A DNA stretch of 64,000 nucleotides. Origin: Escherichia coli (GTDB lineage: Bacteria; Pseudomonadota; Gammaproteobacteria; Enterobacterales; Enterobacteriaceae). Where the stretch lies: assembly GCF_050920415.1 (NCBI RefSeq), contig NZ_CP169309.1; one strand, given 5' to 3'. Shown one piece after another: positions 33,783 to 37,387 of the stretch; position 1 is the first letter of the stretch; every line of letters starts with the position of its first letter. Under the pieces are notes generated by a model, which was given only the letters and a program-made list of their open reading frames with translations, was not told the DNA's origin and made no database searches. The position numbers and the translations under genes were made by a program.

Positions 33783-33792
33783 TGGGGTGAAT

Positions 33793-35883
33793 ATGGCAGT
33801 AAAGATTTCAGGTGTCCTGAAGGACGGAGCGGGTGAGCCTGTCGTAAACTGTGCGATTGAATTGCGTGCCAGAAGAACCAGTCCGACAGTTGTGGTTAAT
33901 ATTGTGGCAACCTGTCTTACGGGAAGTGATGGTGGGTATACTATTAATGCTGAGCCGGGATTTTATGATGTATTTTTGTCCCGCTCAGGGCATCCTCCTG
34001 TAAAGGCGGGGGAAATTTATGTTGCACCGACAGATGAGCCGGATACGCTGAATGCTTTTCTGGATGCACCAAAGGAGGGTGATTTACGCCCTGAGGTAAT
34101 GAAGCGTTTTGAGGAAATGATAAATACCGTTTTTCGCTTGTCTGAGCAGGTGGTCAGTGACAGGGAGAGAGCAGAAACAGCTGCTGATGATGCAATCAAT
34201 GCAGCAACATCTGCGGCGGTTAGTAAGGATGAGGCAGAAGAGCTAAAAAATCAGACACAGCAGAGCGCCGAAGCTGCAGCCGGAAACGCACAGCAGACGG
34301 CACAGGATGTGACGACAACCGCAACGGCCCGTGATGATGCGGAACGTTTTGCGGGTGAGGCAGAAAACAGCGCACAGTCATCAGGCACATCGCGGGATGA
34401 ATCAGTCGATGCCGCCGAACGTGCCCGCCTTTATCATAATGCCGCATCATCAGCTGCAACCAGCGCGGAAAATGCAGCAAATGCTGCACTCGGGCATGAA
34501 AATAACGCTGCCGAATACGCCCGACAGGCTAAAGACAGCCAGGATGCAGGTGCAGACAATGCGCAGGAAGCGAAACAGTACAGGGATGAGGCGCAGCAGA
34601 TAGTTGATGACCTGAATGCAACAAATGCCAGCACGACAGAAAAAGGTCTGGTGCAACTGTGTAGTGATACGGACAACGACAGCGATGAACTGGCTGCCAC
34701 GCCAAAGGCTGTCAAAGCCGTCATGGACGAAACGAAAACAAAAGCGCCACTGGACAGCCCGGCCTTCACCGGCACCCCAACCACCCCAACCCCACCGGAT
34801 GATGCCGCCGGTCTGGAAGCAGCGAACGCAGCGTTTGTGCGCAAACTGCTTGCTGCGCTGGTTGGCTCATCGCCGGAAGTTCTGGACACCCTGAACGAGC
34901 TGGCAGCGGCGCTGGGCAATGACCCGAACTTTGCGACGACAATCACAAACGCGCTGGCAGGCAAACAACCGCTTAATGACGTCTTAACGGCAATCAGCGC
35001 ACTGACGCAACGGGCAGATAATCTTCTGTACTTCAATACGGACGGGAATGCCTCACTGTCTCCGCTGTCAGAGAAGGCCCGCGCATTACTGGCGCATGAC
35101 ACGGCTGAAGCCATGCGCACGGAGCTTGAGCTGAACGCGGCTGCGACGATGGAACCCCAGAGTGATATCCGTGACCGCACACCGGGCAGGCTGGCCCTGT
35201 CCGGGATGTATGGGTTTGGACAGGCATTCACCAGCGCCGAAGCTCTGTCATTTAACGGACAGGCTGATTTCGTTATATGGCTGCAGACAGTCACCCCGGG
35301 GCGTTATGCGGTCAGTATTGCGGACTCCTCCACGCTGCTGAAGGGGACCACGAAATTTAACGGTATCATTGATGTGATGTGGTCACCGTCTGATAACGAC
35401 GAATCAGACACGGCGCGTAAATTCAAAACGCTGCTGTACTACAACCAGTATTACGAGGATGAGCACAGCATACATTGTATGCGTTATCGCTACAGTGGTA
35501 ACAGCTGGAATGCAACATCAAGCCTTATTGTGTATGACGGCAACTCCCTGGCATATCTGATGTCCTCAACCGCCGGTAATGGTCCGTTCTCATATTACAA
35601 ATACCCGGCCGTCGGTGTGCCGATAATGGCGGTATATCAGGGAGAAAGTTTTGGTGAAAATGCTTCTCTGGGACTCGGTGATACTGTGCCGGGTTCCCGT
35701 CTTGGTCCTCTGGCCATGAGTGCACAGGTTAGTGATACAGGGACATACGCATCCTCACCGCAGGTTGTGATTGGCGGTGCCGGTGAATACAACTTCCCCG
35801 GTCGTTACACGGCGCTTTCGGGCCTGGGTAACAATTATGGTACTCAGCGTGGCTTTATCGGTCTTTTTGTACGCATTGAGTAA
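33793..35883 (+). CDS. stf: Side tail fibre protein (lambda Stf-like)
   Basis: N-terminus MAVKISGVLKDGAGEPV as lambda Stf; Ala/Ser-rich repeats; conserved ...LAATPKAVK...NELAAALGNDP region. Confidence 0.85.
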   Translation: MAVKISGVLKDGAGEPVVNCAIELRARRTSPTVVVNIVATCLTGSDGGYTINAEPGFYDVFLSRSGHPPVKAGEIYVAPTDEPDTLNAFLDAPKEGDLRPEVMKRFEEMINTVFRLSEQVVSDRERAETAADDAINAATSAAVSKDEAEELKNQTQQSAEAAAGNAQQTAQDVTTTATARDDAERFAGEAENSAQSSGTSRDESVDAAERARLYHNAASSAATSAENAANAALGHENNAAEYARQAKDSQDAGADNAQEAKQYRDEAQQIVDDLNATNASTTEKGLVQLCSDTDNDSDELAATPKAVKAVMDETKTKAPLDSPAFTGTPTTPTPPDDAAGLEAANAAFVRKLLAALVGSSPEVLDTLNELAAALGNDPNFATTITNALAGKQPLNDVLTAISALTQRADNLLYFNTDGNASLSPLSEKARALLAHDTAEAMRTELELNAAATMEPQSDIRDRTPGRLALSGMYGFGQAFTSAEALSFNGQADFVIWLQTVTPGRYAVSIADSSTLLKGTTKFNGIIDVMWSPSDNDESDTARKFKTLLYYNQYYEDEHSIHCMRYRYSGNSWNATSSLIVYDGNSLAYLMSSTAGNGPFSYYKYPAVGVPIMAVYQGESFGENASLGLGDTVPGSRLGPLAMSAQVSDTGTYASSPQVVIGGAGEYNFPGRYTALSGLGNNYGTQRGFIGLFVRIE

Positions 35884-35897
35884 TGAGGAAATCAGGC

Positions 35898-36470
35898 ATG
35901 AAAATCAGAGCGGTGAAAGGCATCAGAAACGCACATTATCTTGAAAATGGTGCGGTTGACTGCGAGGTGTTATTTGAAGGTGAAACGGAGTTCGCCCTGT
36001 ATACTGCCATACAGGATGATATGGCCCCGACAGGCCAGCATGTCTGGCAGGAGCTGCAAAGCGGGAAATGGGGCGAAATCGCCCCGTTCACCGTCACGCC
36101 GGAACTTATTGCAGCGGCAAAGGATGCCAAAAGGCGGGAAATTGAGGCATGGCGCGACAGTCAGGAAAACGTTGAGTTTATTTTCACGTTTGATGGCCGT
36201 CGTTTTGATGGCGGAAAAACCTCGCAGTCACGCCTTGCGCCCGTGGTTGCAACAGCGCAGGCCGGACTGCTTCCGGAGGGTTTTTTCTGGACTGATGCGG
36301 ATAATAACAACGTCGTACTGACCAGGGAGAAACTTATTGCGCTGAACGATGCCATGATGGTGGCCATGGTGGCGGAGGGCTTTAAAATCCACGAACGCCA
36401 GCGCGAGATGAAGGAACAACTGAATAATCTGAATGACTTGGCTTCAATTCGAGCGCTTGACGTTACGTAA
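35898..36470 (+). CDS. Tail-fibre-associated protein in the Tfa position (Tfa signature not recognised)
   Basis: Directly after stf where the fibre assembly chaperone is expected; I cannot see the usual Tfa C-terminal pattern. Confidence 0.4.
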   Translation: MKIRAVKGIRNAHYLENGAVDCEVLFEGETEFALYTAIQDDMAPTGQHVWQELQSGKWGEIAPFTVTPELIAAAKDAKRREIEAWRDSQENVEFIFTFDGRRFDGGKTSQSRLAPVVATAQAGLLPEGFFWTDADNNNVVLTREKLIALNDAMMVAMVAEGFKIHERQREMKEQLNNLNDLASIRALDVT

Positions 36471-36540
36471 TAAAAATCACTGATATGCCAGCCCCTTGTA
36501 AAGATATTGATCAGGGTTGTTTTGATGTGAATTAGATTTA

Positions 36541-36650
36541 CATGGGGTGCTTTGGGGCATGTATGGGACAGAAATGTCTGTTTTGGGACATTTTGGGGCA
36601 TGGTTGGGACACTATAACACATACGAACTTAACCGAATTTCGTATGGTGT
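36541..36650. repeat. Repeat cluster at the prophage right end (TTGGGGCATG x2, TGGGACA x3, plus CATACGAA/TTCGTATG inverted repeat)
   Basis: Short direct repeats between the last phage gene and yecD; consistent with attR arm-type recombinase/IHF sites. Confidence 0.4.
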
Positions 36651-36820
36651 TAATTTTTAACGTGTTGAATACACTAGAGAAAGCGAATGCTCTTGGGCGT
36701 TCTTTAGTGATTTTTAAAATAGTCCTGTCATGCAGTTAAAGTGGCGGGCATACTCTTCAAGGCTGGTGATCCCCAACCGCACCCATTTAGGATGCGACCA
36801 TTGTGGCAGACCGATGTAAA

Positions 36821-37387
36821 TCATAATGCGTTGAGGATCTCTTCCACACTGCGCACACGGGCGATGCGTGGGTAGATATGGTTGATGCTGTTATTATGCT
36901 GCTCAGCGCTGGCGGCGCTGCAGGCGTCTTCGGCAATCACCAGATTAAAACCAAGTTCCCAGGCATTGCGGGCGGTGGATTCAACACCGATATTGGTCGA
37001 GATCCCACATAATACTATTGTATCGATACCCCGGCGGCGTAATTGCAACTCCAGATCCGTACCGTAAAACGCACCCCATTGACGTTTGATGATTTCAATA
37101 TCGCTGTCTGTTGCACCCAATGCAGCAGGATGTTGCCACCAATTTTCGGGCAACACTTTAGCGGGGGAGGGGGCATCAACCGGCTGTTTTAATGCTTCGG
37201 CGTAATCGGTAGACCAACCAACGCGCACCAGAAACACGGGCTGACCGTTCGCGCGAAATTTCGCCGCCAGCTTCCCTGCTCGATTAACCACCTCATCGGC
37301 AGTATGAGGACCACCGGCAAAAGGTAAGATGCCTTCTTGTAAGTCAATTACCACCAGCGCAGTGGTATTAGCATTCAGTTCAAGCAT
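36821..37387 (-). CDS. yecD: Isochorismatase-family hydrolase YecD
   Basis: 188 aa recognised as E. coli YecD; divergent from aspS as in the chromosome. Confidence 0.9.

What the first reader, a model, noticed from the sequence alone, without database searches (positions are those of the whole stretch)
35898..36470. Protein in the tail-fibre assembly position lacks a recognisable Tfa signature
The gene directly after stf is where a Tfa chaperone is expected, but I cannot see the usual Tfa C-terminal pattern in the 190-aa product. It may be a divergent chaperone or a different fibre accessory such as a receptor-modifying or exclusion factor.
Basis: inference. Interest (0 to 1): 0.3.

Follow-up and report, generated by a model that had tools for sequence, protein, structure and literature searches.

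The report
DUF4376-type tail-fibre chaperone after stf
The gene after the side tail fibre gene is an ordinary member of a second, already described family of phage tail-fibre folding helpers (DUF4376) that replaces the classical Tfa, so it is neither a mystery protein nor an exclusion factor.

Summary
The 190-aa product of window 35898-36470 has no Caudo_TAP (Tfa) signature by Pfam or by profile-profile comparison. It does match Pfam DUF4376 strongly (71 bits against a cut-off of 25, residues 73-180). Members of that family have been shown by experiment to be tail-fibre chaperones (Alteromonas phage V22 gp27, Campylobacter CJIE1).

Homologues lie directly after a fibre gene in sipho-, myo- and podoviruses; 75 of 83 related loci show this.

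The protein has two parts. The N-terminal beta domain (about residues 1-66) follows the type of fibre tip. The C-terminal helical DUF4376 domain is exchangeable.

Natural chimeras join the N-terminal fibre-binding region of lambda Tfa or Mu U to a DUF4376 C-domain. One sits after a lambda-Stf-like fibre tip. DUF4376 therefore stands in for the conserved C-terminal assembly domain of classical Tfa.

The best reading is a cognate intermolecular chaperone of this Stf: it works like Tfa but is not a Caudo_TAP member. It is a new member of a known kind and of low interest. The host prophage, inserted in yecE, is annotated with many pseudogenes. No biochemistry was possible, and a fused Stf-chaperone AlphaFold run was inconclusive.

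The parts
33787..35883 (+). stf, the side tail fibre gene (698 aa from the GTG; RefSeq starts at 33793). It has a lambda-like N-terminus and a non-lambda C-terminal tip, residues about 449-698, that ends ...GLFVRIE.
   Evidence: Pfam gives phage_tail_N (residues 3-136) and Phage_fiber_2 (282-321). The tip has no Pfam or PDB match. The tip is 38% identical to the fibre of phage Av-05 and 50% identical to Rac-SA53 tail3.
35885..35889 (+). Shine-Dalgarno sequence GAGGA of the chaperone gene, 8 nt before the ATG and inside the 14-nt gap after the stf stop codon.
   Evidence: Read directly from the sequence. The same 14-nt gap occurs in 33 of 75 related loci.
35898..36470 (+). Gene for the 190-aa DUF4376-family tail-fibre chaperone (stop codon included).
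35898..36095 (+). N-terminal domain, residues 1-66: three beta strands (6-14, 20-26, 33-37) and a helix (44-54). This is the proposed fibre-tip-specific binding module.
   Evidence: AF2 model with pLDDT 97.8. Its identity between homologues tracks fibre-tip similarity (Spearman 0.87; partial 0.81 after controlling for the C-domain).
36114..36437 (+). DUF4376 domain, residues 73-180: long helices (68-90, 107-121, 143-177) with two beta hairpins (94-105, 130-140). This is the proposed generic assembly or oligomerisation module.
   Evidence: Pfam PF14301, E 1.1e-19. AF2 model. It is 49-51% identical to the C-domains of the natural Tfa-N/DUF4376 chimeras P0138 and P0142.
36471..36729 (.). AT-rich non-coding end of the prophage (GC 0.39). 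The junction with the chromosome (attR side) lies at about 36729-36733.
   Evidence: Similarity to uninterrupted yecE in other E. coli genomes starts at query position 259-263. GC content. No convincing terminator and no Rfam match.
36723..36824 (-). Remnant of yecE (DUF72), the gene split by the prophage insertion.
   Evidence: RefSeq annotation of NZ_CP169399. The integrase lies next to the other yecE part at the left end.

Best explanation
The gene encodes the cognate intermolecular chaperone of the Stf fibre encoded just upstream. It is made with Stf from the late operon. Its variable N-terminal beta domain (about residues 1-66) is proposed to bind the C-terminal tip of nascent Stf chains. 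Its conserved helical DUF4376 domain (about 67-190) is proposed to oligomerise, probably as a trimer. That would bring three fibre C-termini into register so that trimer folding starts at the tip. The chaperone would then leave, or stay only loosely as a cap. What is shown: family membership, gene position, the two-domain architecture, the association of the N-domain with fibre-tip type, and the natural replacement of the Tfa C-terminal domain by DUF4376. What is inferred by analogy with V22 gp27, TfaMu and Pam3 gp25: physical binding, 3:3 stoichiometry, trimerisation and release.
For: (1) Pfam DUF4376 scores 71.3 bits against a cut-off of 25, and the best PHROG match (1141) is in the tail category at 1.7e-81.
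(2) V22 gp27 is needed to obtain functional fibre gp26 (PMC7289586). It hits the same Pfam model at 3.2e-21 and aligns with this protein at 25% identity over 161 aa, E 3e-5. The DUF4376 gene after the Campylobacter CJIE1 H-fibre is likewise needed for function (PMC7882524).
(3) Synteny: homologues lie directly after a fibre gene in P-EibA and Rac-SA53 (sipho), phiP27 and Av-05 (myo), and GER2 (podo). In 75 of 83 usable loci a fibre-sized ORF ends between 4 nt of overlap and 20 nt before the homologue's start.
(4) Among 68 unique fibre-chaperone pairs, N-domain identity tracks fibre-tip similarity (Spearman 0.87; partial 0.81). The C-domain adds little (partial 0.20). Recombinants exist: L014 versus L024 have N-domains 100% identical, C-domains 41% and tips 98%; P-EibA versus PhiR5_2 have N-domains 30% and C-domains 98%.
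(5) Natural chimeras exist. P0142 is 47% identical to lambda Tfa over residues 1-117 (E 8e-40), followed by a DUF4376 domain 51% identical to this protein. It sits in the gene-G position of a P2-like prophage, after a fibre whose tip is 54% identical to lambda Stf. Of 150 family representatives, 13 carry a lambda-Tfa-like N region and 3 a Mu-U-like N region.
(6) The AF2 model (pLDDT 97.8) shows an N-terminal beta domain and a helical body with hairpins, as described for V22 and A5 chaperones (PMC10579305). The overall plan matches TfaMu and Pam3 gp25: the N domain binds the fibre and the C helical domain trimerises (PMC9608196).
(7) The protein is acidic, soluble, 21 kDa and has no membrane segment.
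Confidence: 0.8

Rival explanations
1. The protein is a retained fibre-tip component. It stays on the mature fibre as a cap or adhesin and takes part in, or gates, receptor binding, as proposed for TfaMu, T2-type gp38 and the transient caps of Alteromonas phages.
For: PHROG families that match it are labelled 'tail fiber protein'. A5 gp9 co-purifies with its fibre and is not needed for folding, which led to the cap proposal (PMC10579305). TfaMu stays bound to its fibre.
Against: V22 gp27 does not co-elute with the mature fibre. Pam3 gp25 is absent from virions. The variable part follows the fibre tip rather than varying on its own, as a receptor-contacting adhesin would be expected to do. The conserved half is a helical bundle shared across phages of many hosts.
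Confidence: 0.12
2. The protein is a highly diverged true homologue of Caudo_TAP Tfa, that is, the same family drifted beyond recognition.
For: It has the same position, size and two-domain plan. A short local motif, G-x-L-P-E-x-F-x-W, is shared between lambda Tfa residues 88-101 and residues about 120-131 here.
Against: The Pfam Caudo_TAP model gives no hit at E<=1. hhalign gives probability 0.25%. Lambda Tfa, Mu U and U', and phiP27 L55 hit only Caudo_TAP and never DUF4376 at E<=10. phiP27 and Rac-SA53 carry one gene of each type side by side.
Confidence: 0.05
3. The protein is a lysogenic-conversion or exclusion factor: a moron at the prophage end that modifies a receptor or blocks superinfection.
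For: It is the last gene of the prophage. In related phages that end of the genome carries cargo such as eibA or an adhesin.
Against: It has no signal peptide or membrane segment and no PADLOC hit. It has no promoter of its own above chance. It starts 14 nt after the stf stop with its own Shine-Dalgarno sequence. The family is present in the virulent phage Av-05 and in baseplate modules of P2-like phages. In related phages the cargo genes lie after the homologue, not in its place.
Confidence: 0.03

Closest known systems
Alteromonas phage V22 gp27 and A5 gp9 (DUF4376 tail-fibre chaperones; PMC7289586, PMC10579305)
   Same: They share the Pfam family PF14301 and align pairwise at E 3e-5. Size is similar, 190 versus 195 aa. 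Both genes lie directly after the fibre gene. Both have three N-terminal beta strands followed by a helical body with a beta hairpin.
   Different: Identity is only 25%. The N-terminal domain and the partner fibre tip are unrelated; V22 gp26 lacks the ...LFxRI ending. The host and phage type differ: E. coli lambdoid siphovirus versus marine myo- and podoviruses. Nothing has been tested for the E. coli protein.
Lambda Tfa, Mu U (TfaMu) and P2 G: Caudo_TAP PF02413 tail fibre assembly proteins
   Same: They share the position after the fibre gene, a size of about 20 kDa, and a variable N-terminal fibre-binding domain plus a conserved C-terminal domain. Natural chimeras show that the DUF4376 domain can take the place of the Tfa C-terminal domain behind a lambda-Tfa or Mu-U N-domain.
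   Different: There is no sequence or profile similarity. The conserved C-terminal domain belongs to a different family and is longer, about 120 versus about 70 residues.
Cyanophage Pam3 gp25 (cryo-EM complex with fibre gp24, PDB 7YPX; PMC9608196)
   Same: The same working plan is inferred here: an N-terminal beta domain grips the fibre tip, and a C-terminal helical domain trimerises, giving a 3:3 complex that is released before virion maturation.
   Different: By its authors' account gp25 is Tfa-like, not DUF4376. No similarity to it was seen in the PDB searches.
C-terminal intramolecular chaperone domains (Peptidase_S74 type; K1F endosialidase 3GW6, T5 pb1 4UW8)
   Same: The authors of PMC10579305 report that DUF4376 chaperones resemble these domains: a helical core trimer with beta-hairpin tentacles at the fibre tip.

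Membership tests
DUF4376 (PF14301) tail-fibre chaperones | Match to the Pfam model above its gathering score | tested here: met
   71.3 bits against a cut-off of 25, E 1.1e-19, residues 73-180. All 110 aligned relatives also match.
DUF4376 (PF14301) tail-fibre chaperones | Detectable homology to an experimentally validated member (V22 gp27) | tested here: met
   BLASTP gives 25% identity over 161 aa, E 3e-5. gp27 itself matches PF14301 at 3.2e-21.
DUF4376 (PF14301) tail-fibre chaperones | Gene lies directly downstream of a tail fibre gene on the same strand | tested here: met
   It starts 14 nt after the stf stop. The same arrangement holds in 75 of 83 related loci and in seven annotated phages.
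DUF4376 (PF14301) tail-fibre chaperones | Fold: N-terminal three-stranded sheet plus a helical body with a beta hairpin | tested here: met
   The AF2 model (pLDDT 97.8) has strands 6-14, 20-26 and 33-37, helices 68-90, 107-121 and 143-177, and hairpins 94-105 and 130-140. BFVD gives 44 hits at E<=1e-3, and nearly all of the named ones are DUF4376 proteins. The match to the published description is qualitative only; no superposition was possible.
DUF4376 (PF14301) tail-fibre chaperones | Co-expression is needed for, or improves, production of functional fibre | not testable with these tools
   This needs wet-lab co-expression. The in-silico substitute, a fused-chain AF2 run, was inconclusive.
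Caudo_TAP (PF02413) Tfa proteins | Match to the Caudo_TAP model, i.e. the conserved C-terminal Tfa motif | tested here: not met
   No hit at E<=1. The controls lambda Tfa, Mu U and U', and phiP27 L55 hit at 1e-22 to 1e-43.
Caudo_TAP (PF02413) Tfa proteins | Profile-profile similarity to a Tfa alignment | tested here: not met
   hhalign of A1 against A2 gives probability 0.25% over 13 columns.
Caudo_TAP (PF02413) Tfa proteins | Variable N-terminal fibre-specific domain plus conserved C-terminal domain | tested here: met
   Many family representatives match only residues about 70-180. The N-domain tracks the fibre tip. This is a likeness in how the protein works, not evidence of membership.
Intramolecular chaperone domains (Peptidase_S74 type) | Sequence or structural match to the K1F or T5 chaperone domains | tested here: not met
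Superinfection-exclusion or receptor-modifying prophage factors | Envelope targeting (signal peptide or membrane segment), or a match to a known defence or exclusion family | tested here: not met
   The highest 19-residue Kyte-Doolittle hydropathy is 1.36 and GRAVY is -0.32. The best PADLOC E-value is 0.022.

The most novel reading that the evidence does not exclude
The DUF4376 protein may be more than a folding helper. It may remain loosely on the Stf tip of released particles as a removable cap that shields the receptor-binding site. If so, its exchangeable C-domain subtypes would tune how long fibres stay masked. The two C-domain subtypes, only about 41-44% identical, are found behind identical N-domains and fibre tips, as in L014 versus L024. 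That would make the chaperone gene a hidden regulator of adsorption timing and host range in E. coli lambdoid phages.
Probability: 0.12. Interest if true: 0.45.

Novelty: new member of a known kind. Interest (0 to 1): 0.18.

Why it matters
For annotation, genes now labelled 'DUF4376 domain-containing protein' or 'tail fiber protein' after stf in E. coli prophages can reasonably be called tail-fibre chaperones. For phage engineering, a transplanted fibre tip of this type should be moved together with at least the N-terminal third of the downstream gene. The natural chimeras suggest that the DUF4376 and Tfa C-terminal domains are interchangeable assembly modules. None of this changes current understanding of fibre assembly. 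The family's role was already shown in other phages.

Tried and rejected
(1) PDB sequence search with the protein and with the Stf tip found nothing.

(3) The afdb50 structure library was unavailable.

(4) The search for related loci with family alignments A1 and A3 failed because no stretch was conserved enough. The single-protein scan worked.

(5) I predicted a fused chain of Stf tip (residues 449-698), a 30-residue GS linker and the chaperone, using a paired 17-sequence alignment. It gave pLDDT 63 and pTM 0.48. This is inconclusive, and the tool returns no coordinates, so no interface could be read.

(6) I considered that the fibre's conserved C-terminal L-F-x-R-[IV]-x ending is the docking site of the DUF4376 domain. 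I rejected this as a general rule. DUF4376 chaperones also partner fibres ending ...NYIVRLA...AMVKF and ...ITVNF.

(7) The statement in PMC7882524 that Mu U contains DUF4376 was not reproduced.

(8) Rfam and the promoter and terminator scans around the gene found nothing meaningful.

Full report
**What is there.** The window matches the E. coli MFDS1022581 chromosome at 100% identity over the 3-kb query. The finding lies at the right end of a lambda-like prophage of about 46 kb inserted into yecE. The late-gene order is J, lom, stf (33787-35883), then the ORF in question (35898-36470). About 260 bp of AT-rich non-coding DNA follow, and then the junction with the yecE remnant at about 36729-36733. 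The ORF is intact and encodes 190 aa. It starts 14 nt after the stf stop codon and has a GAGGA Shine-Dalgarno sequence 8 nt before its ATG. It is a real and common gene. 1549 clusters at 90% identity match it, mostly from E. coli and mostly named 'DUF4376 domain-containing protein'. The exact stf-plus-ORF combination is present in 19 of 5426 complete E. coli genomes.

**The observation.** Pfam gives no Caudo_TAP hit even at E<=1. NCBIfam gives nothing. BLASTP against lambda Tfa is not significant. A profile-profile comparison of 110 relatives against a Caudo_TAP alignment (lambda Tfa, Mu U and U', phiP27 L55 and others) gives probability 0.25%. As positive controls, those Tfa proteins hit Caudo_TAP at 1e-22 to 1e-43 and never hit DUF4376.

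**What it is.** Residues 73-180 match Pfam DUF4376 at 71.3 bits against a cut-off of 25. The best PHROG family is in the tail category at 1.7e-81. DUF4376 is no longer of wholly unknown function.

- Alteromonas phage V22 gp27 is required to obtain receptor-binding-competent fibre gp26 and is not part of the final complex (PMC7289586).
- Its relative A5 gp9 binds its fibre, and the authors modelled a 3:3 tip complex (PMC10579305).
- The DUF4376 gene after the Campylobacter CJIE1 H-fibre must be co-expressed for the fibre to work (PMC7882524).

I confirmed that V22 gp27 hits PF14301 at 3.2e-21. It aligns with the window protein at 25% identity over 161 residues, E 3e-5.

**Context in other phages.** Homologues lie directly after a fibre gene in several morphotypes.

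- Siphoviruses: P-EibA orf-191A and Rac-SA53 tail4.
- Myoviruses: phiP27 L57 and Av-05 gp77.
- A short-tailed Sepvirinae phage: GER2.

I fetched 80 viral-contig loci and added the annotated phage loci. Of the 83 that carried a usable homologue, 75 had a fibre-sized ORF ending between 4 nt of overlap and 20 nt before the homologue's start. The commonest gap was the same 14 nt seen here. phiP27 and Rac-SA53 each carry two fibre-chaperone pairs, one with a Caudo_TAP gene and one with a DUF4376 gene. This argues that the two gene types do the same job for different fibres.

**Architecture and mechanism.** AlphaFold2 with a 110-sequence alignment gives a very confident model (pLDDT 97.8, pTM 0.83).

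- The N-terminal domain has three strands (6-14, 20-26, 33-37) and a helix (44-54).
- The C-terminal body has long helices (68-90, 107-121, 143-177) with two beta hairpins.

This fits the published description of the V22 and A5 chaperones. Against 1.84 billion cluster representatives, 367 match at E<=1e-3. Many of them match only residues about 70-180, so their N-termini are different.

In 68 unique fibre-chaperone pairs, N-domain identity follows the similarity of the last 200 residues of the fibre. Spearman correlation is 0.87, and 0.81 after controlling for the C-domain. The C-domain adds little, with a partial correlation of 0.20. Clear recombinants exist.

- L014 versus L024: identical N-domains and fibre tips, but C-domains only 41% identical.
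- P-EibA versus PhiR5_2: C-domains 98% identical, but N-domains only 30% identical.

One caveat applies. The N-domain is encoded next to the fibre's 3' end, so genetic linkage alone could give part of this signal.

**The chimeras.** The strongest evidence comes from natural chimeras that cross the family boundary. P0142 is 248 aa and sits in the gene-G position of P2-like prophages. Its residues 1-117 are 47% identical to lambda Tfa (E 8e-40). Its residues 121-235 are 51% identical to the DUF4376 domain of the window protein. The fibre before it has a lambda-Stf-type tip, 54% identical over 248 aa, with the same ...NIAFNYIVRLA ending. P0138 is built the same way. Among 150 family representatives, 13 have a lambda-Tfa-like N region, 3 have a Mu-U-like N region (P0140, E 5.5e-31), and 40 have the window-type N region.

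So the N-domain goes with the fibre tip. The DUF4376 domain occupies the place of the conserved C-terminal domain of classical Tfa. For Tfa-type chaperones it is established that the N-domain binds the fibre tip and the conserved C-terminal helical domain oligomerises, in a 3:3 complex. The sources are TfaMu, as summarised in PMC7882524 and PMC9608196, and the Pam3 gp24-gp25 cryo-EM structure. I therefore infer the same division of labour here.

**Rivals.**

- A retained cap or adhesin role remains possible, at about 0.12. A5 gp9 and TfaMu stay bound to their fibres.
- An exclusion or receptor-modifying factor is very unlikely. The protein has no membrane or export signal and no defence-family hit. 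The gene has no promoter of its own above chance. The family is present in virulent phages and in baseplate modules.
- A drifted Caudo_TAP homologue is not supported by any profile test. Only a short shared motif, G-x-LP-E-x-F-x-W, is seen.

**Verdict.** The protein works like a Tfa, but it is a member of the DUF4376 chaperone family and not of Caudo_TAP. It is a new member of a known kind and of low interest. In this strain the prophage is annotated with many defects: frameshifts in the genes for tail protein U, J and the lysis proteins, a tape-measure gene in two fragments, and an IS66 insertion. These annotations were not checked independently. If they are real, the gene may no longer serve a working virion.

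Noticed in passing
window 33787-35883 (Stf C-terminus) and loci L003-L090: 74 of 75 fibres encoded directly before enterobacterial DUF4376 genes end in L-F-x-R-[I/V]-x (here ...GLFVRIE). This holds even where the rest of the tip shows no detectable similarity. Lambda-type tips end ...NYIVRLA and V22 gp26 ends ...ITVNF, so the motif marks a fibre-tip family rather than all DUF4376 partners.
   Followed up: partly
window 35131-35880 (Stf residues 449-698): The receptor-binding tip of this Stf has no Pfam or PDB match. It is shared with the rV5-like virulent phage Av-05 (38% identity) and with Rac-SA53 and phiP27 fibres. It is an uncharacterised tip domain that moves between phage morphotypes.
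   Followed up: partly
window 1-36730 (prophage; RefSeq annotation of NZ_CP169399, 2110149-2156411): The prophage in yecE is annotated as decayed. The genes for tail protein U, J and several lysis proteins are marked frameshifted, the tape-measure gene is in two fragments, and an IS66 element is inserted. Some frameshifts could be assembly errors. This was not checked.
   Followed up: no
window 36471-36729: An AT-rich (GC 0.39) non-coding stretch of about 260 bp lies between the chaperone gene and the prophage end, with no convincing terminator. In related phages this position carries cargo genes: eibA in P-EibA and an adhesin in GER2.
   Followed up: partly
lambda Tfa residues 88-101 (L002) versus window protein residues about 120-131 (window 36255-36290): A short motif, G-x-L-P-E/D-x-F-x-W, is shared between Caudo_TAP proteins and the DUF4376 hairpin region. 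It recurs as a secondary phmmer hit in several chimeras. It is not significant at profile level, and its meaning is unknown.
   Followed up: partly
L003 (phiP27) and L004 (Rac-SA53): Both phages carry two consecutive fibre-chaperone pairs, the first with a Caudo_TAP chaperone and the second with a DUF4376 chaperone.
   Followed up: yes
literature: PMC7882524: The paper states that the Mu U gene has a DUF4376 domain. Here Mu U and U' hit only Caudo_TAP, even at E<=10. However, natural proteins with a Mu-U-like N region and a DUF4376 C-domain do exist (P0140).
   Followed up: yes
window about 41712-43382 (+): Three annotated hypothetical genes (287, 61 and 194 aa) lie between yebB and ruvA. None has a Pfam or PADLOC match. 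They may form a small accessory island.
   Followed up: partly
window about 45449-46429: An IS621 (IS110-family) transposase gene lies between ruvB and znuB.
   Followed up: no
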